38,398 nt of DNA from Candidatus Kaiserbacteria bacterium. GTDB lineage: Bacteria > Patescibacteriota > Minisyncoccia > Phycocordibacterales > UBA918. A program made the position numbers and the translations under genes. Below the pieces are notes generated by a model. It had not been told where the DNA came from. It was given only the letters and a program-made list of their open reading frames with translations, and searched no databases. The stretch lies in assembly GCA_024653575.1 (NCBI GenBank), contig JANLIJ010000161.1, positions 1-38,398 of the forward strand, in the 5' to 3' direction. Positions 15,877-34,043 of the stretch are shown here, in pieces (within the stretch, counting starts at the first letter, position 1; each line of letters begins with the position of its first letter).

Positions 15877-17199
15877 ATGTCAAAACCACTCATTATATGT
15901 AGGAACCTTGACATCACCTATAATAAGGGGAAGTCGAATGAATTTAAGGCGCTTCAGGGTGTAAACACTGACATTTACGAGGGCGAGTATATTATTCTCT
16001 TTGGACCATCGGGTTGTGGAAAGTCAACACTCATGTACGCCATACAGGGTTCACTTCCACCGGGTGATGGGACATTACTTATACGAGGCGATGATATTTA
16101 CTCATATCCCCCACAGGAGCGCGTCTACTTCCAGAGATATGTCATGGGAATTATTTTTCAGTCATTCAATCTCATTGGCTCCCTCTCGGTGCTCGATAAT
16201 GTTGCGCTTCCCATGATTTTTTGTGATGCAAATAAAGCGACACGCGAACGAAGGGCACAAATGTTGCTCGACAGGTTTGGTGTTGGTCACGTATCCGATA
16301 AGATTCCCTCAATGCTCTCAGGAGGACAGCAACAGCGTGTCTCTGTAGCGCGTTCCATGGTGAACGATCCGCAGATTCTACTCGCTGATGAACCAACAGG
16401 GAACCTCGATAGCACATCGACACAGCAGGTTATGGATAAGATTGACGAAATTAACACCTTTGATCAACGCACCATTATCATGGTCTCACACAATGCAGCT
16501 CACCTCTCATACGCTCATCGTGTGTACTACCTCAAGGATGGATTCATTGTGCGTGAGGTGGTGAATCCTCAGAGAAAGCAAATTAAACCCGTTCGTGAAG
16601 GTGAGACTATTGTAACTGAACTCGAACTGCTTGCGCGTCTTTTTCCCTACGACTCTATAGACACCCTTCGTGTAAAAAGTCTTACCAATTTTTTAACGCA
16701 AGATTATTCATTCAACCAACTTATTCGTATCGAGAAAGCTATCAGCCTTCTTATAAATGGAAAGATTCACAAAAAACTATTTATCGATGCACTGGTGAAA
16801 AAGTATGACGAAGGTGGGGTAGGAATAGAGAGGAAAACAGCAGAGCATATGGCGAGTGCTTCGGTCTCTATCGTGAAGCAGTCAGCAGATATTAAGCGTT
16901 TCAGAAGTGACAATGATTCCGATGCGGCATTCTTTTCGCAACATAAATTCGCTGAACGCGTGCGCGAGTATCTTCTAGAAAATCATCACATTCCACTCAC
17001 AAAAGTAATGGAGGCAAACCTTACTACGATGATTGCTGACAGGCTCTCCGGCGTCACGGGAGATAAAGATTTCCATAGAGAACTCATGGCGCTCACCAAG
17101 GATGGTGGCCTTCACCTCAAAGAAGATCTCGCTGATGATATGGCGCGGTACATGGAGAAACTCATCGCCCTCGGTGTTGATGTGAGCTACAAGGCGTAA
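15877..17199 (+). CDS. ABC transporter ATP-binding protein, MacB/LolD family, with ~210-aa C-terminal extension
   Basis: Walker [10 protein letters not shown]-loop IFQSFNLI, signature LSGGQQQR, Walker B/D-loop [13 protein letters not shown]-loop MVSH. Confidence 0.95.
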
Positions 17200-17799: not shown

Positions 17800-20381
17800 A
17801 CACACTACGCGCTGTCTTTATAATTTTTACATTATTGCTCATAGCACCGAGTGTGTCGTTTGCTTCAGGAGGGACAATAACTTATACAGATTCTTCAGGA
17901 TTAAATCCACGATCATCACCAGCGTACGTAGGTGGGTATGTTGTTGAGACTTTTAACTCATCTGGTTCCTTTGTTATAAATACAATCCTAAGTAATGTGG
18001 AATACTTAGTTGTAGGGGGTGGTGGAGGGGGTGGTGGAGGCTTTGGAATTAGTTCTGGCGGTGGGGCAGGTGGATTGTTATCTGGGACAATCGTCTCATT
18101 GCCTGTTGGTGTTTATCCAATCACAATAGGTTCAGGAGGAGTAATGACAAATAATGGAGAGAATTCATCAGCATTAGGTTTTGTCACGAATGGAGGTGGT
18201 GCTGGAGGAGGCAGTTCATCAGCATTATCTGGGGGGTCAGGCGGTGGAGGTGGCCCATACGTTGGGTATTCCGCTCCCGGTACTGGTATCGCAGGTCAGG
18301 GTAACTCAGGTGGAACTGGGGCAACGGGTATGGGGGTAAACGGTTGTGCCGGGGGAGGTGGCGCTGGTGGTGTTGGAAGTAATGCTAAATGGATTGGCGG
18401 AACTGGTATTGGGGGTCCGGGTTCAGCTTCGTCAATTAGTGGTATCTTAACTTATTATGCTGGTGGCGGTGGTGGCTGTTCATACCAAGGGGGAATAGGT
18501 GGCGGTGGTTCTGGAGCGACTCCAGGCGTCAATGGGACTGGTGGTGGTGGAGCATCTCTCACTTCAGGTGGTTCTGGGATTGTTATTATACGATATCGAT
18601 ATAGCATTGATCTCGGAACAATTAATGTTTCATCAAATCTATCTGGTGCCTCATGGACAATTACTGGACCTGAGACCATAACAGGAAATGGGACATCTCA
18701 GACAAATTCAAATAAACCAGTTGGGACATACACGATTATGTGGGGTAGTGTGCCAGGGTATACTACTCCTGCAACGCAGAGTTTTACACTCACGTCAGGT
18801 AATACGATTAATTTCAGTGGGAGTTACATTTCAACATTGGCTGATCTTACCGCAGGACCTGTTACACCATTAACAACTCCCGTCAATACACCGACAACAT
18901 TCTCTTCTGCGATAATGAATATTGGAGGAGTGTCCACGAGCGAATTTGGAGGTTCGTGCTTACAGCTCACAATTTCGAGCGATACAAAAAATTATAATAT
19001 GCGTACCGCTGCAGATACCGCAGGATGGGTGGCGGGTCAGCCAATATGTCTGACTGTTAATCCAGGTGTCAGTGTAGGTTCGCTATCAACAGCACAACCA
19101 GCAATGACTACAGGGATCTTTCCGGTTGGTACGAGTATAAATATAGTTAATAGGGGTTCTATCATTGGGGCAGGAGGGAATGGGGGGAGGGGGACAAATC
19201 AAGGGTCAACATTTGTCTCTCCTAATTCTGCTACAAATGGAGAAAACGGAGGCAACGCTCTCTCGCTGAATCTTGATGTGAAGTTAGATAATACTTCGGG
19301 AACAATTCTTGGAGGTGGTGGCGGTGGTGCCGGATCTTGGGCTTACGTAGGTTCATATGGTGGAGGTGGAGGTGGAGGTGCTGGCAGTCTTCCAGGAAGC
19401 GGTGGTTTAAAGGGAAATATCGCAGGTGGTGATTTTTCAAATTGGTGTGTTGGAACAAATGGCTCTGCTGGAAGTACTGGCGGTGGTCTGGGTGGTAATT
19501 CAGCATACCAGTATGGATGTCCATTTAACGCAGGGTACACTCCCTTGTATGGTGGAACTGGAGGAAACTATGGCCAAAACGGTGCAAATACTTATGCAAT
19601 TGCAACCAATATTAATGGGTATGGTGGTTTGGCGGGTACTGCAATTGTGTATAACGGTTTTACCACCAGTGCACTGGTTACTGATTTTTCAAACTTCTTC
19701 CAGGTTGCAACTGCTCCGAATGGTGGTGGTACCGTCATTGATTTACCAGCTACTACAATGAGCCCAGTGAATGCGGGTGATACACGTAATGCAACAGTAT
19801 CACACACCTTCATGTCGGCAGGAACATATTCTATGCGTGCTTGTGCTGACGGTACGACATCTCTTGGTGGAGGAGTAATAACTGAATCTAACGAAACTAA
19901 TAATTGTGGTCCGTGGACAGATATTGTTGTTTCTCCTCCAACACCTCCTAATCCCTGCGCCCTGACGTCCATCAATGATTGCTTCCTCCCCGACACACCC
20001 TCAGGAGGAAATGCAGGTGCGTGTATATCTTTAGGAACATGTAACTACTCCTGCACAAACGGCGCATGGACACAGAATACAAATTCCTGTGTCAACCCAC
20101 CCGAGAACCCCATACTCACCGTCAACAGACGCACCGTGGAGAAAGACGGCACCGTCACCCTCACCTGGGACACGAAGAATGGCAATGAAGCACTCTGTAC
20201 CCTCACCGCATACAGTGAAGGACCGAACCTCATCACCGCAGACGGAGACTCCATAGGCTCACTGAACGCCACTATACCCGCCCGCAGTACGTACACGCTC
20301 TCCTGTCCAAACCCACTCGGTGGAGCACCACTCACGGACACCGTCTCGGTAGACATTGTGCCGGTGGGGGTGGAGACGTAG
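17796..20381 (+). CDS. Secreted glycine-rich adhesin: Gly-rich domain, PEGA-like domain, CARDB domain split by a phage gp38-like polyglycine domain, Cys-rich and Ig-like C-terminus
   Basis: Signal peptide (..SFA-SGG). VEYLVVGGGGGGG...GGSGIVIIRY, GTINVSSN..GTYTI..VPGY, ADLTAG..NIGG and GTYSMRACAD..ITESNETNNC motifs. Confidence 0.85.
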   Translation: MNTLRAVFIIFTLLLIAPSVSFASGGTITYTDSSGLNPRSSPAYVGGYVVETFNSSGSFVINTILSNVEYLVVGGGGGGGGGFGISSGGGAGGLLSGTIVSLPVGVYPITIGSGGVMTNNGENSSALGFVTNGGGAGGGSSSALSGGSGGGGGPYVGYSAPGTGIAGQGNSGGTGATGMGVNGCAGGGGAGGVGSNAKWIGGTGIGGPGSASSISGILTYYAGGGGGCSYQGGIGGGGSGATPGVNGTGGGGASLTSGGSGIVIIRYRYSIDLGTINVSSNLSGASWTITGPETITGNGTSQTNSNKPVGTYTIMWGSVPGYTTPATQSFTLTSGNTINFSGSYISTLADLTAGPVTPLTTPVNTPTTFSSAIMNIGGVSTSEFGGSCLQLTISSDTKNYNMRTAADTAGWVAGQPICLTVNPGVSVGSLSTAQPAMTTGIFPVGTSINIVNRGSIIGAGGNGGRGTNQGSTFVSPNSATNGENGGNALSLNLDVKLDNTSGTILGGGGGGAGSWAYVGSYGGGGGGGAGSLPGSGGLKGNIAGGDFSNWCVGTNGSAGSTGGGLGGNSAYQYGCPFNAGYTPLYGGTGGNYGQNGANTYAIATNINGYGGLAGTAIVYNGFTTSALVTDFSNFFQVATAPNGGGTVIDLPATTMSPVNAGDTRNATVSHTFMSAGTYSMRACADGTTSLGGGVITESNETNNCGPWTDIVVSPPTPPNPCALTSINDCFLPDTPSGGNAGACISLGTCNYSCTNGAWTQNTNSCVNPPENPILTVNRRTVEKDGTVTLTWDTKNGNEALCTLTAYSEGPNLITADGDSIGSLNATIPARSTYTLSCPNPLGGAPLTDTVSVDIVPVGVET

Positions 20382-20448: not shown

Positions 20449-21657
20449 ATGCAAGTTGCTGATCTTGCTCGTCTTTCGACGAGAGCCTTTAAAACAAATC
20501 CACTCCGTACATGGCTGACGATTCTTGGTATGGGTGTGGGTACTGGTGCTGTCGTGGTGCTCGTGGGACTCGGCTTTGGTTTGCAACAAATCATTTTGGA
20601 ACAGATTGTCTTCGGGGACAGTCTCCTTTCTCTTGGTGTATCCGCAACAGGAGCGAAGAACCTCTCTATCACCGACGATGTTATTCAGAAATTTGAAGAG
20701 AATGAATATATTGAGGACGCAGCACCTCTTGCGCGCTATCCAGCACTTATTACCTATAAGGGTCTTACGGGTAACGTGTTCATTCAGGGTGCAGAGCCAG
20801 CGTATCTTCGCTATGCAGGTATAACCGCATCAAACGGTACTGCCTTTGTTGAAGAGGATATTGCAAACGGCAATGAAATAATGCTTTCCCCAGCGGTATT
20901 AAAGCTCTTTGGTGTTGAAGATCCAAAAGCATTTATTGGTCAAGAAGTCACTTTTAGACTCCTCGTTCCCGATACGGAAAACAGTGAACTTATTACAGAG
21001 ATTAATATTGAGAAGAAATATCGAGTGAAGGGAATCACAAAGGAGGAAGGAGTGCTCAATGTACTCATGATGTTGCCTGAACTCAAGAACTATGTCGGGA
21101 TTGAGGAGTACGACAGGGCACAGGTTAAGGTCGTTTCAAACCAATTTCTTGCATTGGCAGAAGAGGAACTCATTAAGGAAGGGTACCGAGTGACAGCACT
21201 TTCAAAGACTGTCGAGCAGGCATCGAAGATTTTTCAGGGAATTCAGGTGGTACTCGCAACATTTGGAGGTATCGCGCTCCTCGTATCCGCAATTGGTATG
21301 TTCAATACTATGACGGTGACGCTCCTCGAGCGGACCAAGGAAATTGGTATCATGAGAACAATTGGTGCTTCTCCAAGTGATATCAAGTCACTCTTCGTTT
21401 CTGAGTCAATTGTTGTTGGTTTTCTCGGGGGAGTGAGTGGGATAGTTATGGGGGTAACTTTGGGATTTGCTGTGAATATCATGTTGAACATTGCAGCGAG
21501 TCAGTTCGGTGGTACCTCGGTAAACCTCTTTTCGTTCCCTGTGTGGTTCCTTCTCTTTATTGCAATATTCTCAGCAGTTGTGGGGTATTTGACCGGAATC
21601 TTCCCAGCCAGAAGAGCCTCATTACTCAATCCACTCGACGCTATTCGCTATGAGTAG
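20449..21657 (+). CDS. ABC transporter permease, MacB/FtsX family (type VII ABC)
   Basis: N-terminal RTWLTILGMGVG TM, a large extracytoplasmic domain, IGMFNTM..ERTKEIGIMRTIGA, three further TMs and a C-terminal PARRASLLNPLDAIRYE. Confidence 0.95.
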   Translation: MQVADLARLSTRAFKTNPLRTWLTILGMGVGTGAVVVLVGLGFGLQQIILEQIVFGDSLLSLGVSATGAKNLSITDDVIQKFEENEYIEDAAPLARYPALITYKGLTGNVFIQGAEPAYLRYAGITASNGTAFVEEDIANGNEIMLSPAVLKLFGVEDPKAFIGQEVTFRLLVPDTENSELITEINIEKKYRVKGITKEEGVLNVLMMLPELKNYVGIEEYDRAQVKVVSNQFLALAEEELIKEGYRVTALSKTVEQASKIFQGIQVVLATFGGIALLVSAIGMFNTMTVTLLERTKEIGIMRTIGASPSDIKSLFVSESIVVGFLGGVSGIVMGVTLGFAVNIMLNIAASQFGGTSVNLFSFPVWFLLFIAIFSAVVGYLTGIFPARRASLLNPLDAIRYE

Positions 21658-23688: not shown

Positions 23689-24615
23689 ATGAAGTTTTTT
23701 CGCTCATTCCTGATTATAATTGCAGTACTTTTTTTTAATGTGCATGCACTGTATGCTGGCTTTGGTGTGACTCCGCCTTATGTATCGAATGTAAGTCTTA
23801 CACGGAATTCAGTATATGAACAAACGATTTATCTTGTGCGCAGTGACCCTACAACAGACCTGAAAGCAACAGTAAGTATTGATGTCCCTGGCGTCAATGA
23901 GTGGTTTGTAATCAATGAAGGAAATGAGTTTGTTTTGCCAAGAGGTGAGCAGAAGGTACCGATGACCGTAAAGGTCACTGTTCCTGACGATGCTGATTTT
24001 AAGCAGTATTCAGGGAACATCAGAATTAAGACAGGCGCAACTGATGACAAAGTACAGGGAGGCGCGGTGAGCATTTCACTCGGTGCACAGATTGATGTTG
24101 ATATCACTGTTATTGATAAAAAGATTAAAGATTTTAAAGTTAGAAAAATTGGTGTCTCAGATCTCAATGAGGGGCATAAGGTTGGGTGGCTCTATTATCC
24201 AGGAAAGATTACTTTTGAGATGTTCATTGAGAACATTGGGAATGTACCAATTGCACCATCTGACGTAGTCTTTAGAATATATGATAAATCAGGAAATGTA
24301 TTACTTGAAGAGGCTCATAAAAAGGGAAAGATTGAACAAGTAGAACCATTTGCCACAAAGTCAGTAATAGCAGAGTTGCCAACCAAGCTTCCTTCAGGAA
24401 GTTACCTTGCGAGGTTTGAAATTAAAAATGGTGATGATACAAAACTGAGTGGTGAGGTCAACCTTAGTGTGCTCCCGTACGGTACACTCCAGACGGCAGG
24501 CTTTGGCTTCCTCGGTCTATCTCTCGCACACAAACTCTCAGTAATAGTTCCAATTTTGTTCTTTATTACAATCCCACTCGCTATCCTCGTTCGTGCAAAA
24601 AGAAGGAGGAGATAG
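23689..24615 (+). CDS. DUF916/DUF3324-like (WxL-interacting, chaperone-like) two-Ig-domain protein with C-terminal membrane anchor
   Basis: Signal peptide MKFFRSF..LYA, then FGVTPP, YSGNIRI..LGAQI, FIENIGNV and LPSGSYLA motifs. C-terminal TM followed by KRRRR. Alternative start at 23662. Confidence 0.7.
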   Translation: MKFFRSFLIIIAVLFFNVHALYAGFGVTPPYVSNVSLTRNSVYEQTIYLVRSDPTTDLKATVSIDVPGVNEWFVINEGNEFVLPRGEQKVPMTVKVTVPDDADFKQYSGNIRIKTGATDDKVQGGAVSISLGAQIDVDITVIDKKIKDFKVRKIGVSDLNEGHKVGWLYYPGKITFEMFIENIGNVPIAPSDVVFRIYDKSGNVLLEEAHKKGKIEQVEPFATKSVIAELPTKLPSGSYLARFEIKNGDDTKLSGEVNLSVLPYGTLQTAGFGFLGLSLAHKLSVIVPILFFITIPLAILVRAKRRRR

Positions 24616-24616
24616 T

Positions 24617-25741
24617 ATGAAAATAAATAATTTCTCGCTACACCTTTGCCTGCTCTTATTGTTTGTGTTGTTTTGTTCTGGTTCGAAAAGTGCACATGCA
24701 CAGATTTCAGTCTCGACAACAACAGTCTTTGTGAGTATTTGTGGTGATTCCCTCATAAACTCTGGAGAAGAGTGCGATGTGCCTGGTGAGGTCGGTTCGT
24801 ACAGCACAACAATTGCAGGAAGACAGTGCGGTACTGAATGTCTCTATGGTCCATACTGTGGTGATGGCATCCTTCAGACAATTCATGCTGAGGTTTGTGA
24901 TGATGCAAATAATATAGATGCTGATTTTTGCGCCGCTGACTGTAGTCGTGAGACTGCGAATAGCGGTGGAGGGTCATCTGGTGGTGGAGGAAGTTCAGGT
25001 AGTGGTGGTCGAGATGCTGTGCTCGGTGACACACAGGTATCAATTCAAGGAAAAGCGTTTTTAAATACAACAGTTACGATACTCATCGACGGGACTTCAG
25101 TTGGAACGGTGCGTACTAACAGTAGAGGAGAATTTCAATTCAACGTTGAGACAGACCCGGGAACAGCATCCTTCGGATTCTGGGCGACAGATTCATCAGG
25201 TACACGTTCACTCACCGTAAATACCACTTTTGACGTGACACAGGGTGCTGTAACGAGTCTTAATGGAATTCTCATTCCACCAACGATACGTGTTTCTAAA
25301 GCAGTTGTGAACCCCGGTGAGGTTGTCACGGTGAGTGGACAGACAATGCCTGACTCTACAGTAGAAGTGGTCGTCGATAGTGGTACAAAGACATTTACGA
25401 CGACATCTGATTCTACCGGTAAGTGGTCACTTGAACTCAATACTGGCTCGTTGTCGGTGAGTGCGCACACACTCAAGGCCAGATTTGTCTCTGGTTCTGG
25501 ATCATTAAAGACCCAGAGCCCCTACGGTACGTCACTTGCACTTTCAGTTGGTGTGGAGGGGAAGGCGACAAATAATTCAGATTTGAATAGAGATGGAAAG
25601 GTTAATCTTATCGACTTCTCGATTCTCATTTTCTGGTGGGGAACACCAGGTGGTAACTCAAACCCGCCAGCGGATATAAATCAAAATGGTAAGGTAGGAC
25701 TTGAAGATTTCTCTATCCTCCTCTTCAATTGGACAGGCTAA
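24617..25741 (+). CDS. Secreted protein: Myxococcus-type Cys-rich repeats (DUF4215-like), Gly/Ser linker, two Ig-like domains, C-terminal dockerin
   Basis: SD AGGAGG at 24604-24609 before ATG 24617. CGDSLINSGEECD and CGDGILQ..EVCDDAN..DFCAADC repeats. Duplicated Ca-binding loops DLNRDGKVNLIDFSIL / DINQNGKVGLEDFSIL. Confidence 0.85.
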   Translation: MKINNFSLHLCLLLLFVLFCSGSKSAHAQISVSTTTVFVSICGDSLINSGEECDVPGEVGSYSTTIAGRQCGTECLYGPYCGDGILQTIHAEVCDDANNIDADFCAADCSRETANSGGGSSGGGGSSGSGGRDAVLGDTQVSIQGKAFLNTTVTILIDGTSVGTVRTNSRGEFQFNVETDPGTASFGFWATDSSGTRSLTVNTTFDVTQGAVTSLNGILIPPTIRVSKAVVNPGEVVTVSGQTMPDSTVEVVVDSGTKTFTTTSDSTGKWSLELNTGSLSVSAHTLKARFVSGSGSLKTQSPYGTSLALSVGVEGKATNNSDLNRDGKVNLIDFSILIFWWGTPGGNSNPPADINQNGKVGLEDFSILLFNWTG

Positions 25742-25743
25742 TC

Positions 25744-25900
25744 GAGTATAAGTATTTAGTATAAGTATGGAGTATACGAAAACACAACCACTAAATGCTA
25801 CGAACCAAACGCTAATCACCAATCACTAAGTGCTAACTCTTATGTATAATTGCAGTCGTTGCCTTTAAATACTGATACTCATACTAAATACTAATACTAA
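25744..25900. repeat. AGTAT / ATACT 6-7-nt periodic inverted repeat
   Basis: AGTATTTAGTAT at 25751-25762 is the reverse complement of ATACTAAATACT at 25881-25892. About 5 units per arm, with an inner CACTAA-like array. Confidence 0.75.
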
Positions 25901-25903
25901 CTT

Positions 25904-25945
25904 TGTGTATAACTTGCTCATAAAAATTTCAGGGTGCGCTAGAAT
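25904..25945 (+). promoter_or_regulatory. DnaA box and TAGAAT -10 box upstream of the structured leader
   Basis: TGTGTATAA at 25904-25912 and TAGAAT at 25940-25945. Confidence 0.55.
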
Positions 25946-25950
25946 GTAAG

Positions 25951-26168
25951 TACGCCTATTGGGGGTACACAATCCATTCATGTGAGGAGTGTGTGTCGCC
26001 GGTTGGACACGTTCATGCCGCAAGTGCTTACAGCCGAGCACTGTCTGGTGGGCGTAGTACATTGATAGTAAACATTAGGGAGGTGGAGACTCTCATGTTT
26101 ACGGAGTGCACAAATATATACTGGAAAGAGCACCAGTTAAGCACTACTCATTATTCAGAGTCAATGTA
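25951..26168 (+). ncRNA. Putative structured 5' leader / ncRNA with two multibranch domains
   Basis: At least eight short stems, largely compatible with one another, several with G-U pairs (see findings). No family recognised. Confidence 0.6.
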
Positions 26169-26191
26169 TTGATTAATACAACGTAAAGCCT

Positions 26192-27331
26192 ATGATTCAC
26201 ACGGAAAAGACCGTGCGAACTCTTCAGGCTGTTGCGATGTCGGTTGGTTTGGCACTATTCCTTTGGAGTACAGGCCTCCCAGCATTACTCCTCCAAGCGG
26301 AGGCGGCATCAATCACGAACGCAAGTGATACGCTGAGTAATTCAGCACCATCAGTGACCTCAAACCACACGATTGCCTTTACTACGCTAAATGGTATGAC
26401 AATCGGACAAAACTTTACCGTGACCTTCGCATCACAGTTTGACACCTCAGCGGTGACAATCAACGATGTAGACCTCAGTGTAGCTGCTGCCGATCAAACG
26501 ATCGTAGATGGTGCATCAGTGGCTGGTCAATGGGGAGTTGCGGGTTTGGGGACTGACGCGATTACATTTACCACACCTACAGATGCAGGAGTCGGATCTT
26601 CAACAGCAATTGTTGTGAAGATTGGATCAAATGCAACTGGTGGTACGATTCGAATCGTGAATCCAAGTGCTACAACGTCCTATGCAATTGATGTTGCGGG
26701 GACAATGCAGGACTCAGGACAGATGCGTGTTGCAATTGTTGATCAGGTTACCGTGTCAGCGAGTGTCGATACGTCACTCACATTTTCAGTTACCGGAGTT
26801 AATCCTCTACAAACTGTAAATGGAAGCCCTACTACAACAATCGCTACATCAACACCGACAACACTTCCATTTGGAACACTTCCAGTGGGAACATCACGTA
26901 CACTTGCACATGATCTCACTGTCGCCACTAACGCCTCACAAGGCTATACGGTGACGATACAGCAGACCGGTGATTTGCAATCAACAACTGGTGCAACTAT
27001 CGATGGATTCATTGATGGTGCAGATACTGCAACGCCAACAGCGTGGCAGGGACCAGCAACATTAATTGCAAACCCTGATACGTATGGACACTGGGGTATT
27101 ACCTCAGAGGACTATGCGTCAACATCTCGTGCCGTTGAATTTTCAAGTGACACGTGGGTATCAGGAAGTACGACACCTATCGCAGTTATGGGCCACGATG
27201 GCCCAGCTGACGGCCTTACAGCTGGTTCAGGTGCTACACGAGTCGGTTATCAAGTTCAAATATCAGCATTGCAAGAAGCGGGTGACGACTATACAACGAC
27301 ACTTCGCTACGTAGCAACGCCGACGTTCTAA
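26192..27331 (+). CDS. Secreted two-domain WxL/fimbrial-subunit-like protein; candidate major surface subunit
   Basis: Signal peptide (..AEA-A). VTVSASVDTSLTFSV, LPFGTL, LTVATNASQGYTV and C-terminal GDDYTTTLRYVATPTF. It has its own promoter, long leader and terminator. Confidence 0.8.
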   Translation: MIHTEKTVRTLQAVAMSVGLALFLWSTGLPALLLQAEAASITNASDTLSNSAPSVTSNHTIAFTTLNGMTIGQNFTVTFASQFDTSAVTINDVDLSVAAADQTIVDGASVAGQWGVAGLGTDAITFTTPTDAGVGSSTAIVVKIGSNATGGTIRIVNPSATTSYAIDVAGTMQDSGQMRVAIVDQVTVSASVDTSLTFSVTGVNPLQTVNGSPTTTIATSTPTTLPFGTLPVGTSRTLAHDLTVATNASQGYTVTIQQTGDLQSTTGATIDGFIDGADTATPTAWQGPATLIANPDTYGHWGITSEDYASTSRAVEFSSDTWVSGSTTPIAVMGHDGPADGLTAGSGATRVGYQVQISALQEAGDDYTTTLRYVATPTF

Positions 27332-27349
27332 GCAACAGACTAAGAGTGT

Positions 27350-27390
27350 GAAAAACCCTATCTCCCACCACGAGACGGGTTTTTCATTTT
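27350..27390 (+). terminator. Intrinsic terminator
   Basis: GAAAAACCC..TCTC-loop-GAGA..GGGTTTTTC followed by ATTTT, about 20 nt after the stop codon. Confidence 0.7.
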
Positions 27391-27801
27391 CTCGATGGCT
27401 CTGCCATCGAGAAAATGAAAAATCCGGCTCGTCCCACGATGACGGGTGCCCAAAAAATAAGGAGCGAAGCGACATATTTTTCGAGGCCGTGGCCTAGAAG
27501 TTAACGAGCGAAGCGACTATAACTTCTGGTCTGTCTCCTTTTTCTTTCACAATGAAAAAGGAGACCATAACAAAATTTTATTCCTAATAAATTTTGTGAC
27601 GCATCACTCCAACGCAATTTATAGTTCAGCATGGTGCGCTGATGCGCCCCATACAGCGACTATATTTTCTGAGCCCGTCGCAAAATTTTATTCCTAATAA
27701 ATTTTGTGACGCATCACTCCAACGCAATTCATAGTCCAGCATGGTGCGACGACACAAAATATGAGTGACCCAATTCCTAGTTTCCTAGCTCGTCCCACGA
27801 T
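27376..27801. repeat. Cluster of palindromes and direct repeats (REP/MITE-like)
   Basis: 20-bp perfect IR at 27380-27422, 12-bp IR at 27533-27565, 68-bp direct repeat at 27571-27638 / 27681-27748, 14-bp direct repeat at 27427-27440 / 27788-27801, and GAGCGAAGCGAC twice. Confidence 0.85.
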
Positions 27802-27842
27802 TTTTTATACACCCTCCATGCATGTGAGTGCACGCAAACTCT

Positions 27843-27851
27843 TGCTATACT
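27843..27851 (+). promoter_or_regulatory. Extended -10 promoter (TG-C-TATACT)
   Basis: TGCTATACT ends 12 nt upstream of ATG 27864. Confidence 0.6.
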
Positions 27852-27863
27852 ATGTTTATATAT

Positions 27864-28880
27864 ATGAGGTGGACATTTTTCATTCAGGGTTTTTGGTTTG
27901 CATTGTTATTCTTAGTACAACCTCTTGCTGTGCATGGAGCACTTCTCTATTTTGACCCCGCAAGTACTGATGTGTATAGAGGTGATAGCGTTACACTTTC
28001 ACTCAGGCTCGATACTGATGAAGGGGAGTGTATCAACACTATTGACGCCACTGTCCACTATGACGAGTCCGTTCGTGCGGTTGATATTTCGAGGGGAGAC
28101 TCTATTTTGAATATATGGGTTGAGGATCCCGTTATCGATGAATCAGCGCATACTATTAAATTTGCTGGGGGTATTCCTGGCGGATACTGTGGTCGCATTC
28201 CTGGAGACCCAAGTCTCACCAATGTTATCTTGAAACTCGTATTCCGCTCACCCGGCTTTAGTATAGGAGGTGGAGACAGCCAGTCAGCACGTGTTTGGGT
28301 GGATGAGAACGTGCAAGTGCTTCTTCATGATGGGTATGGAACAAATGCTGACACAAAACTGCAGGACGCGCTCATTAATTTAATGAGTACCCCAGGGACA
28401 AACGTTTCTGATACATGGAGGAGTGATGTTGGAGGAGACGCTGATTTGCCGTCAGATTTTAGTATCACTTTAACAAAAGATGACACAGCTTTTAGTGGAC
28501 GATATTTTGTTGTATTCAATTCCAGTGACAAACAGTCAGGTATTGATCACTATGAAATAATGGAAGAGCCATTTTCAGAATTCTTTGCCTTCGCATGGGG
28601 AAGGGCAGACGCACCATGGGTACGGGTAGAGAGTCCTTATGTACTCGAGGACCAAACGCTCAACAGTACTATTCGTATAAAGGCTATCGATAAAGCAGGA
28701 AATGAGCGCATCGCAACTCTTGTCCCCGATACTGCCTTACGAAGCATGTCGCAGGATGCACTGATCACAACCATTGTTGCCGTTGGTGTAATTGGATTGC
28801 TTAGTACACTCATTGTGTATGGGTTGTGGAAACGGCGGCAGCGTGTTCTTGAAAACTCTAATAAAATTGATAATGAGTAA
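27864..28880 (+). CDS. Membrane-anchored cohesin-domain protein
   Basis: Signal peptide (..VHG-A). LYFDP..GDSVTLSLRLDT..INTIDATVHYD..SILNIWVEDP..IKFAGGIPGG cohesin-like pattern, Ig-like DKQSGIDHYE..IKAIDKAGN domain, C-terminal TM and KRRQR. Confidence 0.8.
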   Translation: MRWTFFIQGFWFALLFLVQPLAVHGALLYFDPASTDVYRGDSVTLSLRLDTDEGECINTIDATVHYDESVRAVDISRGDSILNIWVEDPVIDESAHTIKFAGGIPGGYCGRIPGDPSLTNVILKLVFRSPGFSIGGGDSQSARVWVDENVQVLLHDGYGTNADTKLQDALINLMSTPGTNVSDTWRSDVGGDADLPSDFSITLTKDDTAFSGRYFVVFNSSDKQSGIDHYEIMEEPFSEFFAFAWGRADAPWVRVESPYVLEDQTLNSTIRIKAIDKAGNERIATLVPDTALRSMSQDALITTIVAVGVIGLLSTLIVYGLWKRRQRVLENSNKIDNE

Positions 28881-31289: not shown

Positions 31290-32030
31290 ATGATACAAAA
31301 ATTTTTGCTCTTATTTTCAATACGACCAAGAGACAGAAAATTTGATACTGTTCGATATGCTTTTCCAATTGTGGTCATCGCTACAATCTTTGCTGGCCTC
31401 GCATCCATCGCAACGGAGAACAGCTCATACGTCACCATCAGTTCTCCATTGACTACCATTTCCCGCGACCAAGAATTTTTCATTGATGTTTCAATTTCTG
31501 CACACGTTCCAATCAATGCAATTGACCTGGTAATATCATATTCTGAAAAGACACTTGATGTGCTTGCGATTGATACCGGAACATCGGTCATAACACTTTG
31601 GACAGAGAACCCATACGCGGAGAACGGAAAAATATATTTGCGTGGTGGTACCTTCAGGAAGGGCTTCCTTGGTGAGCATGAGGTTGCGCGAATTAAAGTG
31701 CGCGCCAAAGAGGCCGGTGAAGCACGGTTCTTTGTGAGCGGAACTGAATTTATTGCGGGGGATGGCCTCGGAACTCCGGTAACTGCAGTAGAATCAGAAC
31801 ATAATGAACTCAAAATTGCGGTGCTTGGTGATGATCGTGGAGTTATATCGGGTGAGGCAACCATTTCTCTTGTGACCGATACCGATGGCGATGGAGACGT
31901 TGATTTGGGCGACATTAGTGACTTTATGACTGCGTGGCTTACACGAACGAATATGTATGATTTTAATCATGACGGAAAAATGACTTTTAGAGATTTTTCG
32001 ATACTTCTTGCAGATTCTTTCCTTCGATAG
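31290..32030 (+). CDS. Cohesin + dockerin fusion protein with N-terminal TM/signal
   Basis: FFIDVSI..PINAIDLVISY..SVITLWTENP..IYLRGG cohesin pattern and DTDGDGDVDLGDIS / DFNHDGKMTFRDFSILL dockerin loops. Alternative TTG start at 31284. Confidence 0.8.
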   Translation: MIQKFLLLFSIRPRDRKFDTVRYAFPIVVIATIFAGLASIATENSSYVTISSPLTTISRDQEFFIDVSISAHVPINAIDLVISYSEKTLDVLAIDTGTSVITLWTENPYAENGKIYLRGGTFRKGFLGEHEVARIKVRAKEAGEARFFVSGTEFIAGDGLGTPVTAVESEHNELKIAVLGDDRGVISGEATISLVTDTDGDGDVDLGDISDFMTAWLTRTNMYDFNHDGKMTFRDFSILLADSFLR

Positions 32031-32108
32031 TGGGTAGTGCCTAGTACTTAGAACTTAGCACTAAGTATTAAAAATTATGTACTAAGTTACTAAGCACCAC
32101 GTACTAAC
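32028..32108. repeat. TAGTACT / GTACTAA heptamer-periodic imperfect inverted repeat
   Basis: TAGTGGG TAGTGCC TAGTACT TAGAACT TAGCACT, then GTACTAA GTTACTAA GCACCAC GTACTAA. Confidence 0.7.
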
Positions 32109-32115
32109 CTAGAGC

Positions 32116-32220
32116 TGTTGATAAATGTGTGGATAGTGCTGGGATTAGTTGTTACTATTGTATATACAGGCACATTGGGTAAACTCGTACGGCAAAAGAG
32201 TCCCTGAAAGTGTGTTTGTA
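32116..32220 (+). promoter_or_regulatory. Two DnaA-box-like sites, extended -10 (TG-T-TACTAT) and a 5'-leader hairpin
   Basis: TGTTGATAA at 32116-32124, TGTGGATAG at 32128-32136 and TGTTACTAT at 32150-32158. Stem 32165-32176 pairs with 32209-32220. Confidence 0.55.
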
Positions 32221-32228
32221 CGTAGAGT

Positions 32229-34043
32229 ATGAATAGAAAACGGTACGTAATGAATACGGCACACAAAGACCTACGCGGTTTTGCATATCTGATATACAGT
32301 GCTATTTCACTGTCACTCCTCATGGTGATGGTGTTTTTACCGCTTGCGCCACTTTTTGCTGATGAGATTGTGATGGACGAACCTACGGTCACTTCTGTTG
32401 AAGAAAGTGTTGTGCCTGACTTCGTTGATCTGGTACCAGAAACAGAAGAGCAGGTAGTCGAAAGCGAGCAACAAGACTTAATTGAGGACGTTGCTATAGG
32501 AAGTGTTATTGATGAACATAATAAATCAGAATTAACTCAAGGTGATTCAGATACAGTACTTTATGATGCTACACAAAGTGGCGAAGACCCAGTACCTGTT
32601 GAAGAAATTACAAGTTCAGATACAAGCGGAAATGCGGTAACTGAGGAAGGTGATATTGCTGATGTAGAAGTAATTGAGGAAAACACAGAGGCAGTGTCTG
32701 ATGAGGCTATCGATACGGAGGTGGCTGAGGAAGCTTCAAATACATCAGACGAGGTCGAAGATATTGAAATCATTGATGAGACAGTGGAAGAATTGCTTGA
32801 GGAAACTGATGGAGAACAGGTCGGGGACATTGATGAGGAGCAAGTCAATGAAACCGAAGAGACTATTTCAGACACTGAAGAGGAAAATGATATTTCTGAT
32901 GAAGAGTCGAAAGTCCACGCAGTCGCAACTTCTTCTGACACAGAAAATGTAATTATGGTAAATACACTTACCAATGACAGCAATAAATTCTCGTTTGCAG
33001 AAAATGAATGCACTACTGCAGGCGATGGAACATTTTATTGTGTAAAAGCTGAACATGCACCTGAGATTATTCATACTGACCGTATTTTTTCAGCCATTGA
33101 CATTGAGGGGGATAAGGAGATTTATGTTGAAAAAGATAGTGAAATTAGCCCTCTCACGAGCAATCAGTATGATGATGATGCACCGTACTATGATGAAGTC
33201 TCAAATACTGCTGTGTGGCATCGTCTCATTGATGGCCGGTACCAAATCATCTCTTTTGATTTTGATAAAGAAGAAGAGACCCAACTAACGAACGATCGAT
33301 TTAACAATATGGAGCCAAACCGCTTTGGTAGCGCAACTGTGTGGCAGGGATGGGTGGGAAATGATTGGGAGATATTCTTTTTTGAAGGTGGCGAACTTAC
33401 TATGCTTACCGACAATACCATTAATGACATCACACCAAGCGTAAATGGAGCATATGTCGTGTGGCAATCATTTGAGAACAGTGCCTGGGTTATGAAGGTG
33501 TATGACATTCGTTCAAGAACAACTGCAACTATTGATGATAAATCAGGAGGCTCTATCGAGAATCCACGTTTTGTACTTGTGTATGATTCAAAACAGATGA
33601 CTGGTGATGTTGAAACAAAGGGATATGACCTCAAGAGTGGTAAGGTGATTGCCCTTGGTTCATCCCCAGTGAATCTACCTGAAGAAATTCCAGATCCAGA
33701 TCAGACTGGTGAGGAGCGTGCGCTTGTGACAATCATCACCCAACTGAAACCAAAGACAGAGGACGATGGTGGTGGAGATGAACCGTTACCAGATGCTGTT
33801 GGTACAAGTACCCCAAGCGACACAGATTTATTCATTACACCAAACGCCATTGAGTTTGGTACCACAACACTCGAGACTGTAGAAGGGCCCACTGCGACAT
33901 CGTCAACTGACGTTATTGTTCCAGCCATTATTACAGTAGATAGTGTCGACACCTCACACATTGAGGATATCATTGTTACAACATATGTAGAGCCAATTGC
34001 AAGTACTACTCTTGCACAGGAAATGATTGTTTCTGAGGAGTAA
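32229..34043 (+). CDS. Exported protein with D/E-rich disordered stalk and TolB-like beta-propeller repeats
   Basis: N-terminal hydrophobic segment and ~190 aa of acidic low-complexity sequence. Repeats LTSNQYDDDAP / LTNDRFNNMEP / LTDNTINDITP, each followed by VW(H/Q). Confidence 0.8.
   Translation: MNRKRYVMNTAHKDLRGFAYLIYSAISLSLLMVMVFLPLAPLFADEIVMDEPTVTSVEESVVPDFVDLVPETEEQVVESEQQDLIEDVAIGSVIDEHNKSELTQGDSDTVLYDATQSGEDPVPVEEITSSDTSGNAVTEEGDIADVEVIEENTEAVSDEAIDTEVAEEASNTSDEVEDIEIIDETVEELLEETDGEQVGDIDEEQVNETEETISDTEEENDISDEESKVHAVATSSDTENVIMVNTLTNDSNKFSFAENECTTAGDGTFYCVKAEHAPEIIHTDRIFSAIDIEGDKEIYVEKDSEISPLTSNQYDDDAPYYDEVSNTAVWHRLIDGRYQIISFDFDKEEETQLTNDRFNNMEPNRFGSATVWQGWVGNDWEIFFFEGGELTMLTDNTINDITPSVNGAYVVWQSFENSAWVMKVYDIRSRTTATIDDKSGGSIENPRFVLVYDSKQMTGDVETKGYDLKSGKVIALGSSPVNLPEEIPDPDQTGEERALVTIITQLKPKTEDDGGGDEPLPDAVGTSTPSDTDLFITPNAIEFGTTTLETVEGPTATSSTDVIVPAIITVDSVDTSHIEDIIVTTYVEPIASTTLAQEMIVSEE

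What the first reader, a model, noticed from the sequence alone, without database searches (positions are those of the whole stretch)
25951..26168. Unrecognised ~220-nt structured 5' leader with two multibranch domains ahead of the candidate major subunit
Seen: domain 1 is closed by TACGCCTAT 25951-25959 / GTGGGCGTA 26048-26056 and encloses CACAATCC..GGAGTGTG, GTGTC 25993-25997 / GACAC 26006-26010 and AGTGCTT 26023-26029 / GAGCACT 26036-26042. Domain 2 is closed by TACATTG 26058-26064 / CAATGTA 26162-26168 and encloses GTAAACAT 26068-26075 / ATGTTTAC 26095-26102, AGTGC / GCACT with inner ACTGG / CCAGT (26105-26145), and ACTC / GAGT. The structure begins 5 nt after a TAGAAT -10 box, about where transcription should start, while neighbouring genes are nearly leaderless. 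Inference: an mRNA stabiliser (as for S-layer mRNAs), riboswitch or protein-binding element.
Basis: partly seen in the sequence, partly recalled or inferred. Interest (0 to 1): 0.75.

Follow-up and report, generated by a model that had tools for sequence, protein, structure and literature searches.

The report
Structured mRNA leader born from a gene
A 244-base, tightly folded RNA leader sits in front of a surface-protein gene of tiny groundwater bacteria (Kaiserbacteria), and it appears to have evolved from a small regulator gene that is still intact in sister genera.

Summary
Window 25951-26194 is a conserved structured RNA. A covariance model built from it finds exactly one copy in each of 47 of 151 genomes of the family. 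Wherever the neighbourhood was inspected, the copy lies directly upstream of the orthologue of the 379-aa secreted protein at 26192-27331.

In 17 genus-level sequences, 94% of cells pair and 49 of 66 pairs carry compensatory double changes (0 of 500 shuffles reach this). A second set of 22 metagenomic sequences gives the same 49 of 66. No Rfam family matches.

New findings:
- The leader is homologous at the DNA level to a 72-94 aa helix-turn-helix ORF. That ORF is related to the N-terminus of rve-type transposases and is still an intact gene under purifying selection at the same place in sister genera.
- Helices P4-P7 already exist inside that ORF. In this genus the reading frame is gone and only the RNA fold is kept.
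- The organism appears to use mostly leaderless mRNAs, shows no Shine-Dalgarno signal, and its genus has an altered 16S 3' end.

Function is inferred. The most likely role is a cis-acting stabiliser and start-site platform. A protein- or ligand-binding regulator remains open.

The parts
25903..25914 (+). Conserved upstream box (TTGTGTATAAC-like), about 30 nt before the -10-like box. Role unknown: second promoter or factor site.
   Evidence: Present in the genus-level, g2 and g6 upstream regions printed and aligned. Not tested further.
25940..25945 (+). -10-like hexamer TAGAAT (TACAAT in most relatives). Presumed promoter of the leadered mRNA.
   Evidence: The consensus scan did not call it because no -35 is present. 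The TSS is inferred, not mapped.
25951..26194 (+). Whole structured leader, from the presumed 5' end to the ATG. This is the match of covariance model R1.
   Evidence: 250.6 bits, model 1-243. Single copy in the own genome.
25952..26055 (+). Domain 1, a four-way junction. P1 25952-63/26044-55; P2 25964-75/25986-97 with conserved loop CAUGUGA; variable hairpin P3 25998-26022; P4 26023-29/26036-42 with conserved loop ACAGCC.
   Evidence: Pairs with double changes: P1 11 of 12, P2 9 of 11, P4 4 of 7.
26056..26170 (+). Domain 2, a four-way junction. P5 26056-64/26162-70; P6 26068-82/26090-102 with invariant loop GUGGAGA; P7a/b 26105-11/26141-45 and 26120-24/26133-37 with loop AAAGAGCA; P8 26146-49/26158-61.
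   Evidence: Pairs with double changes: P5 7 of 9, P6 8 of 13, P7a 5 of 5, P7b 5 of 5, P8 0 of 4 (three of the four pairs never vary, one varies on one side only). Kept inside the ORF-bearing relatives.
26171..26191 (+). Nearly invariant A-rich linker (UAAUACAACGUAAAGCC-like) before the start codon. It has no GGAGG-type site.
   Evidence: Invariant columns. Predicted open at -21..-11: mean unpaired probability 0.7-0.9 over 15 sequences.
26192..27331 (+). Gene served by the leader: a 379-aa secreted or surface protein. N-terminal hydrophobic helix, then two beta-sandwich domains.
   Evidence: 1104 homologues; every source name among the 120 listed reads 'hypothetical protein'; pLDDT 77.5; best fold matches are MSCRAMM adhesins and pilins, TM about 0.2, E 3e-7.
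26187..26230 (+). Tentative continuation of the fold around the start codon. P10 is 26187-91/26226-30 and encloses the ATG. P9 is the hairpin 26200-04/26211-15.
   Evidence: 88.7% of cells paired against 8-51% when slid. Only 4 cells have double changes, all through synonymous codon changes. Weak.

Best explanation
SHOWN. Window 25951-26194 is a conserved structured RNA of a family not present in Rfam. It consists of two compact four-way junctions, a nearly invariant A-rich linker of about 21 nt, and the start codon of a secreted two-beta-sandwich protein gene. It occurs once per genome. It is homologous to a small helix-turn-helix (HTH) gene that occupies the same position in sister genera. 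In those genera helices P4-P7 already lie inside, and just behind, the reading frame.

INFERRED (mechanism). The RNA acts in cis as the 5' leader of a monocistronic, strongly expressed surface-protein mRNA.
1. Transcription starts a few bases after the conserved TACAAT/TAGAAT box, so the long helix P1 forms at the very 5' end. Together with the two tightly stacked junctions it shields the mRNA from 5'-end-dependent decay, as described for S-layer mRNA leaders.
2. The fold keeps the A-rich linker and the AUG in a fixed, exposed place behind P5. In a bacterium that mostly makes leaderless mRNAs, shows no Shine-Dalgarno enrichment and belongs to a genus whose 16S 3' end lacks the usual CCUCC, this would allow internal initiation without SD pairing.
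3. Historically, ribosomes were probably brought to this start codon by translation of the upstream HTH ORF. Its stop overlaps the surface gene's ATG (ATGA) in two distant relatives and lies about 14-47 nt before it in genera g4 and g8. When the ORF decayed in this genus, the RNA fold that had been laid over it was kept and extended by domain 1.

The invariant loops suggest that a factor or a tertiary contact also reads the fold. That part remains open.
For: Structure:
- 36 of 55 pairs compensatory on a MAFFT alignment.
- 49 of 66 pairs, 94% paired, 0 of 500 shuffles.
- an independent set, 49 of 66.
- P1, P4, P5 and P6 are also kept in genus g6 and in the ORF-bearing set.

One copy per genome: (47 of 151 family genomes with a hit, each with exactly 1).

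Leader status:
- A conserved -10-like box lies 5 nt upstream.
- RNA-library contigs bridge leader and CDS: X15 record 1 covers 26027-26994, X17 record 14 covers 26018-26203 at about 98% identity. None of the 4 runs covers 25750-25973.
- 9 of 23 metagenome-collection contigs are 1356-1426 nt long and start at model positions 10-38.
- No -10-like hexamer sits in the leaderless position before this ATG (read from the sequence).

Non-coding here: ORFs of 30 aa or more differ in place and frame among relatives, and two relatives have none. The HTH protein finds nothing in the g1, g2 and g6 leaders (0 of 20 genus genomes at E < 0.008).

Origin from a gene:
- The ORF in g4/g8 has dN/dS 0.07-0.19.
- It matches the N-terminus of 265-288 aa rve/rve_3 proteins.
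- A sequence-only profile of the leaders hits these ORFs at E 9e-12, 1e-7, 3e-6 and 4e-6.
- Model alignments show P4-P7 with compensatory changes inside them.
- The ORF and the surface gene are adjacent in other families, and the stop overlaps the ATG in L124 and L125.

Setting:
- A -10-like hexamer peaks 12 nt before ATGs (112 of 519 against 17 in the control window).
- SD-like words are not enriched (44 against 47).
- The 16S 3' end reads ...GGAUUAAUUCCAAU in two genomes of the genus.

Precedent: 5'UTR stem-loops stabilise slpA mRNA and expose its ribosome site (PMC10221546; one passage read).
Against: - No TSS, half-life or translation measurement exists. All RNA evidence is from assembled contigs, which cannot show ends or strand, and DNA carry-over in RNA libraries cannot be excluded.
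- The short contigs might break at the leader for assembly reasons. One 1552-nt contig runs 100 nt further upstream.
- A stabiliser needs only a 5' hairpin. It does not explain invariant loop sequences (GUGGAGA, ACAGCC, AAAGAGCA, CAUGUGA) kept over a whole family.
- Thermodynamic folding predicts that -10..-1 and +2..+6 are mostly paired. P9 and P10 may enclose the AUG, which would hinder rather than help initiation.
- The window's own folding energy is unremarkable (z = -1.85).
- The window's own 16S gene is not in its assembly, so the altered 3' end is taken from two congeners.
- Start codons in the genome-wide count were simply the first ATG of long ORFs, so they are approximate.
Confidence: 0.45

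Rival explanations
1. Regulatory sensor. The two junction domains are a binding platform for a protein (for example the surface protein itself or an envelope-stress factor) or a small ligand. Binding changes access to the linker and AUG, or changes mRNA decay. This would be a protein-binding leader or a riboswitch.
For: Hairpin-loop sequences are invariant across 21 aligned sequences while the flanking stems covary. This is typical of recognition sites. Possible structures enclose the AUG (P9/P10) and could serve as the switchable part. The ancestral locus carried a DNA-binding HTH gene and a palindrome upstream of it, so the locus has a history of regulation.
Against: There is no terminator-like site on the + strand and no SD-sequestering helix. 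It occurs in only one gene context and once per genome, unlike most riboswitch classes. The junctions have almost no unpaired conserved nucleotides, and conservation sits in terminal loops. No Rfam family matches, even at E up to 10. No candidate partner was identified, and the HTH protein is not found in this genus.
Confidence: 0.25
2. Ribosome-recruiting leader or processing module. Either the folded domains bind the small subunit or 70S directly (IRES-like), or they direct a cleavage in the linker that releases a near-leaderless mRNA. Both are ways to translate a leadered gene in an organism built for leaderless mRNAs.
For: The organism shows a leaderless signature and no SD enrichment, and its genus has an altered 16S 3' end. 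The upstream ORF that could have delivered ribosomes by coupling has been lost while the fold was kept. The linker is invariant, and its UAAUACAA word recurs before the start of the paralogue, which has a different leader.
Against: This is purely inferential. No ribozyme or tRNA-like family matches. RNA contigs run uninterrupted from domain 2 into the CDS, so at least part of the RNA is unprocessed. Downstream genes of operons in this genome must also initiate internally without such a leader.
Confidence: 0.15
3. No RNA function. The conservation reflects DNA-level signals (promoter, operator) or slow decay of the former HTH gene.
For: The region descends from a coding gene. Several conserved words resemble -10 boxes or the half-site of the palindrome found in ORF-bearing relatives.
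Against: Compensatory double changes in 49 of 66 pairs in two separate sequence sets are not expected from DNA sites or from a decaying pseudogene. The reading frame is destroyed in different ways, yet helices are kept. Domain 1 is a new fold absent from the ORF-bearing versions.
Confidence: 0.03

Closest known systems
5' untranslated leaders of S-layer protein mRNAs (e.g. Lactobacillus slpA)
   Same: A long structured 5'UTR in front of an abundant surface-protein gene. A stem-loop at the 5' end is said to stabilise the transcript and expose the ribosome site (PMC10221546; one passage read).
   Different: Those leaders are described as simple stem-loops with a normal ribosome-binding site. This one has two four-way junctions with invariant loops, no SD, strong covariation over a whole family, and a coding-gene ancestry. 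There is no sequence relation. Nothing shows that the protein here forms an S-layer.
Riboswitches and other Rfam cis-regulatory leaders
   Same: A conserved, covarying multi-stem RNA between promoter and start codon.
   Different: No Rfam family matches. No expression platform was found. Single gene context. Conservation lies in terminal loops rather than in junction cores.
Upstream ORFs that deliver ribosomes by translational coupling (stop overlapping start, ATGA). General knowledge, recalled.
   Same: In relatives a small ORF ends on, or about 14-47 nt before, the surface gene's start codon.
   Different: In the window the ORF no longer exists. Only the RNA fold that overlapped its 3' part remains.
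N-terminal helix-turn-helix domain of rve-type (IS481-like; family name recalled) transposases
   Same: The ORF that occupies the leader's place in genera g4 and g8 matches the first ~75 residues of 265-288 aa rve/rve_3 proteins.
   Different: The small ORFs are single-copy, lack the integrase core, and carry a basic tail. The window has no ORF at all and only DNA-level homology.
Viral and cellular IRES elements (recalled)
   Same: Multi-domain folded leaders that place a start codon without the usual initiation signal.
   Different: No evidence of ribosome binding here, and no bacterial precedent of this kind was consulted. This is an analogy only.

Membership tests
Any Rfam 15 family | Match to a curated covariance model at its gathering score | tested here: not met
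   0 matches in the whole window; with E up to 10 over 25700-26300 there is one chance-level hit (14.3 bits against a 47.9 cut-off) at 25703-25727, outside the element.
Riboswitch | Conserved, covarying aptamer fold | tested here: inconclusive
   The fold covaries strongly. Nothing marks it as a ligand pocket, because the junctions are nearly free of unpaired conserved bases.
Riboswitch | Expression platform (intrinsic terminator or helix that hides the ribosome site) | tested here: not met
   no terminator-like site on the + strand in 25500-26400. No SD to hide. P9/P10 around the AUG are only tentative.
Riboswitch | Recurs before several genes of one pathway, and binds a ligand | tested here: not met
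   exactly one match per genome in all 47 of 151 family genomes that had any. Where the neighbourhood was inspected it precedes the same gene family. Ligand binding is not testable with these tools.
Surface/S-layer mRNA stabilising leader | Long 5'UTR co-transcribed with an abundant surface-protein gene | tested here: inconclusive
   Contigs of RNA libraries bridge leader and CDS. Short contigs of leader-plus-CDS length exist. The protein has a signal-like helix and adhesin/pilin-like folds. TSS and abundance were not measured.
Surface/S-layer mRNA stabilising leader | Stem at the extreme 5' end that lengthens the half-life | not testable with these tools
   P1 starts 6 nt after the -10-like box. 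The half-life is unknown.
Small HTH protein gene (transposase N-terminus-like) upstream of the surface gene | Open reading frame encoding the HTH domain | tested here: not met
   For the window and its genus: no conserved ORF and no tblastn match. Met in g4/g8 and in other families.
tRNA-like element | Recognised cloverleaf with tRNA signatures | tested here: not met
   ARAGORN finds no tRNA or tmRNA in the window.

The most novel reading that the evidence does not exclude
In a bacterial lineage that has given up Shine-Dalgarno pairing and mostly uses leaderless mRNAs, this folded leader is itself the device that brings ribosomes to an internal start codon, a bacterial IRES-like element. It arose by overprinting an RNA fold on an upstream 'coupling' gene, and the gene was then discarded.
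Probability: 0.12. Interest if true: 0.9.

Novelty: new variant of a known kind. Interest (0 to 1): 0.62.

Why it matters
It adds a well-supported new structured RNA family from the candidate phyla radiation, a group with almost no experimentally known RNA regulators.

Two aspects go beyond a routine new motif. First, the fold can be traced to a protein-coding gene. RNA helices and a reading frame under purifying selection coexist in sister genera, while here only the RNA survives. That is a documented path from coding sequence to structured leader. Second, the host appears to lack SD-type initiation, so a 244-nt leader on what looks like a strongly expressed gene raises a direct and testable question: how does internal initiation work in such bacteria?

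Tried and rejected
- Single-sequence folding energy as evidence: only z = -1.85, so it was not used as support.
- Rfam: nothing.
- Conserved small ORF or leader peptide in the genus: none.
- Multi-copy insertion sequence as the source: the HTH ORF is single-copy in g4/g8 genomes. Model R1 did not hit the one full-length transposase gene fetched (L057), nor the ORFs of distant families (L058, L059, L062), at E up to 1. R1 also missed L040, although the sequence-only profile hits it.
- RNAalifold on -32..+48 of 21 sequences gave no consensus. P9/P10 were then counted only as a structure I named, and the support is weak.
- Gene tree of 30 surface-protein rows: the base is an open polytomy, so the number of independent losses of the ORF cannot be told. 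The A and B paralogues of the genus group together, which conflicts with the B-type leader seen in genus g4. This was left unresolved.
- The own genome's 16S gene was not found, so congeners were used instead.
- Depth along the leader in the RNA runs is per contig and was not used to rank parts. The absence of cover at 25750-25973 in 4 runs is noted only as compatible with the presumed TSS.
- Loop-loop or loop-linker pairings looked for by eye (L8 with the linker; the 3' side of P6 with AGAGUC) involve invariant bases only, so they cannot be tested and were dropped.
- Literature searches (Parcubacteria / structured RNA / covariation / leader; Parcubacteria / S-layer / highly expressed / metatranscriptom) listed no paper on this element. 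Only listings were seen, and none of the 15 listed contains 'Parcubacteria'.
- Two look-ups of earlier scan findings returned nothing.

Full report
WHAT IS THERE

The finding lies in a 450-nt gap between ORF 24593-25741 (Ig-like and dockerin domains) and ORF 26192-27331 (379 aa, no Pfam family). Most other gaps between the ORFs I took as genes in this cluster are below about 125 nt. Two are larger: 496 nt downstream of the surface-protein gene and 313 nt at 31915-32229.

The window is a whole contig of a genome of about 1.03 Mb in 220 contigs. Source names on close homologues of the 379-aa protein read Candidatus Kaiserbacteria and Minisyncoccia.

CHECK OF THE OBSERVATION

The folding energy of the single sequence is only marginal: -75.5 kcal/mol, z = -1.85, with 10 of 200 shuffles folding as well. 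The opposite strand gives z = -1.23. Rfam gives nothing: 0 matches at gathering scores in the window, and one chance-level hit outside the element at E up to 10.

CONSERVATION

- The 256-nt stretch matches DNA of 18 of 60 relatives, 16 of them among the 20 genomes of the same genus. The 3' half is kept further than the 5' half.
- The downstream protein has homologues in all 20 genomes of the genus and in 4 other genera of the family.
- The upstream regions of the orthologues share invariant blocks (CAGCCGAG, GUGGAGAC, ACAACGUA-AG before the ATG) and a TACAAT or TAGAAT box just before the first helix.
- ORFs of 30 aa or more in these leaders differ in place and frame, and two relatives have none. 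The genus-level leader is therefore non-coding.

COVARIATION

On a plain MAFFT alignment of 15 leaders, RNAalifold predicts 55 pairs, of which 36 carry compensatory double changes.

I built covariance model R1 (243 positions, 66 pairs) from the 8 best-aligned of these 15 sequences. The structure was RNAalifold's, with one hairpin corrected by hand because its stem covaries as ACUGG/CCAGU, GUUGG/CCAAC, GCUGU/ACAGC and so on.

| Set | Sequences | Cells paired | Pairs with changes on both sides | Shuffles reaching this | Slid controls |
|---|---|---|---|---|---|
| Genus-level | 17 full-length leaders | 94.0% (80.4% in shuffles) | 49 of 66 | 0 of 500 | 32-48% |
| Metagenome contigs | 23 contigs, 22 distinct | 92.6% | 49 of 66 | 0 of 500 | 31-47% |

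The second set was found with a three-motif pattern. Both of these alignments are fitted to the model and lean towards it. The MAFFT-based count does not have that bias.

- P8 has no pair with a change on both sides (three of its four pairs never vary, the fourth varies on one side only), so it is untested.
P3 beats at least 94.5% of shuffles in 13 of 17 sequences but not in the window's own.
- Each domain is a tight four-way junction.

DISTRIBUTION

R1 finds exactly one match in each of 47 of 151 genomes of the family: genus g1 16 of 20, g2 1 of 1, g4 2 of 3, g6 26 of 114, g8 1 of 2, and none in five other genera. Stricter filters applied to this scan, and weak matches may have been lost. The genus genomes without a match either have the gene cut by a contig end or lack the close orthologue. 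In g6 and in the ORF-bearing sequences, P1, P4, P5 and P6 are kept, while P2, P7 and P8 are often absent.

IS IT A LEADER?

Contigs from four RNA libraries of four studies were laid on 25750-27400 at 80% identity.
- X15 record 1 covers 26027-26994, and X17 record 14 covers 26018-26203 with 4 differences. Domain 2 and the CDS therefore lie on the same RNA-library contigs.
- No run covers 25750-25973.
- Contigs cannot show ends or strand.

Separately, 9 of the 23 metagenome-collection contigs are 1356-1426 nt long, which is about leader plus CDS. They begin at model positions 10, 14, 14, 16, 17, 21, 22, 25 and 38, and never upstream of position 1. One 1552-nt contig runs 100 nt further upstream. 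Many homologues also sit on contigs of 1.2-1.8 kb.

This fits a monocistronic transcript that starts at or near P1, but it is a hint and not a mapped TSS. There is no -10-like hexamer in the leaderless position before this ATG (sequence).

ORIGIN

In genera g4 and g8 the same position holds a 72-94 aa ORF.
- It is single-copy there: g4 3 of 3, g8 1 of 2. There is no match in 19 of 20 genus-g1 genomes, and the twentieth has only E = 0.008.
- Its pairwise dN/dS is 0.07-0.19 wherever dS is not saturated.
- It has 39 relatives among protein representatives at E up to 0.001. Six of the 12 that I scanned are 265-288 aa proteins with rve and rve_3 integrase domains, which the ORF matches over their first ~75 residues.
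- It is therefore a stand-alone HTH protein related to a transposase N-terminus.

The same small gene stands next to a homologue of the surface protein in other families. By tblastn, 7 of 15 loci from the species-representative genomes have the surface gene downstream, one of them only partially. In two of them (L124, L125) the ORF's stop overlaps the surface gene's ATG. A palindrome of about 13 bp per arm precedes the ORF in most of these loci.

A sequence-only profile of the 17 leaders hits the g4/g8 ORFs at E 9e-12, 1e-7, 3e-6 and 4e-6. R1 alignments show P4, P5, P6 and P7 with compensatory changes in them. P5 joins codons inside the ORF to bases behind its stop codon. Domain 1 is not recognisable there.

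The more distant ORFs vary at synonymous sites in the GUGGAGAC block and are not hit by R1. The simplest reading has three steps:
1. The ancestral state was an HTH gene followed by the surface gene.
2. In the family's ancestor an RNA fold was laid over the 3' part of the ORF.
3. In g1, g2 and g6 the frame decayed while the fold was kept and extended.

A gene tree could not tell whether the frame was lost once or more often.

SETTING

- In two genomes of the genus the 16S rRNA ends ...GGAUUAAUUCCAAU, so the usual CCUCC core (recalled) is changed. The window's own assembly lacks the 16S gene.
- In the window's genome, a TAnAnT hexamer lies inside -17..-6 of the first ATG of 112 of 519 long ORFs, against 17 in a control window, with its mode 12 nt upstream.
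- GGAG, GAGG and AGGA words are not enriched: 44 against 47.
- The organism therefore looks largely leaderless and SD-independent, which makes a 244-nt leader exceptional.

The linker 26171-26191 is nearly invariant and predicted open at -21..-11. The bases next to the AUG may pair with +35..+39 (P10, 26226-26230), and a hairpin P9 follows at +9..+24 (26200-26215). The support is weak: 88.7% paired, but only 4 cells with double changes, all by synonymous codon changes.

THE GENE

The protein has an N-terminal hydrophobic helix and two beta-sandwich domains (pLDDT 77.5). The best structural matches are staphylococcal MSCRAMM adhesins and pilins, at low TM-scores of about 0.2. It is a secreted or surface protein. 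'Major subunit' is plausible but not shown.

MECHANISM

- Shown: fold, conservation, single copy, gene context, and homology to the ORF.
- Inferred: the RNA is a cis-acting leader whose 5'-terminal helix and compact junctions protect the mRNA and hold the A-rich linker and the AUG in place for SD-independent initiation. This replaces the delivery of ribosomes by the former upstream ORF.
- The invariant loops argue that something more (a protein, a ligand, the ribosome, or tertiary contacts) reads the fold.

My odds are 0.45 for stabiliser and platform, 0.25 for sensor, 0.15 for ribosome recruitment or processing, and 0.03 for no RNA function. The remainder is for something not yet thought of.

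COMPARISON AND NOVELTY

It works most like the structured leaders of S-layer mRNAs (PMC10221546, one passage read). It is not a member of any described family. It fails two of the defining features of riboswitches that could be tested. I rate it a new variant of a known kind. It is a new RNA family with an unusual, traceable origin from a coding gene, in an unusual translational setting.

Noticed in passing
L144:2940-2961 and L145:2940-2961 (16S rRNA 3' ends of two genomes of the same genus); whole genome G000: The 16S 3' end reads GGAUUAAUUCCAAU, so the usual anti-Shine-Dalgarno core is changed. In the window's genome, SD-like words are not enriched before start codons (44 against 47). -10-like hexamers peak 12 nt before ATGs (112 of 519 against 17). 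This suggests a largely leaderless, SD-free lineage.
   Followed up: partly
G000:C110 about 17911-18108 (locus L132:192-389), upstream of the paralogue at C110:18106-19248: The paralogous surface-protein gene has its own, different, very conserved leader of about 190 nt. It has a long-range nested fold: 45 predicted pairs, 8 with compensatory changes, in 11 genomes. It shares the UAAUACAA word before the ATG, and the start codon lies inside a predicted hairpin.
   Followed up: partly
Loci L117-L126 (relatives), just upstream of the small HTH ORF: A palindrome (arms AGCGTTGTCCCCA / TGGGGACAACGCT, spacer 3-20 nt) precedes the HTH gene. One locus carries matching changes in both arms. It could be an operator or a 5' RNA hairpin. 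Its ACAACG half resembles the invariant ACAACG before the surface gene's ATG.
   Followed up: no
window 27332-27827: A 496-nt gap follows the gene. It holds two strong hairpins read by eye (about 27351-27383 and 27385-27422; the terminator scan called none), then two direct copies of an element of about 70 nt (about 27572-27640 and 27682-27750).
   Followed up: no
window 25843-25852 and 25903-25914: Two copies of a TGTATAA-containing box lie about 60 nt apart upstream of the presumed promoter. The proximal one is conserved across the genus, g2 and g6. Several relatives have a small inverted repeat between this box and the -10-like box.
   Followed up: no
window 3-14159, 34065-38396, 24593-25741, 27828-28880: The gene sits in a cluster of very large ORFs (4718 aa with an open 5' end; more than 1444 aa), a dockerin-bearing Ig-domain protein, a weak cohesin-like protein and a MacB/FtsX-type ABC system (15877-17199, 20449-21657). 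This looks like a cell-surface assembly locus.
   Followed up: no
P0001 residues ~191-379 (window 26762-27328): The C-terminal beta-sandwich domain recurs at 28-39% identity inside ORFs of 2000-2470 aa in most genomes of the family.
   Followed up: no
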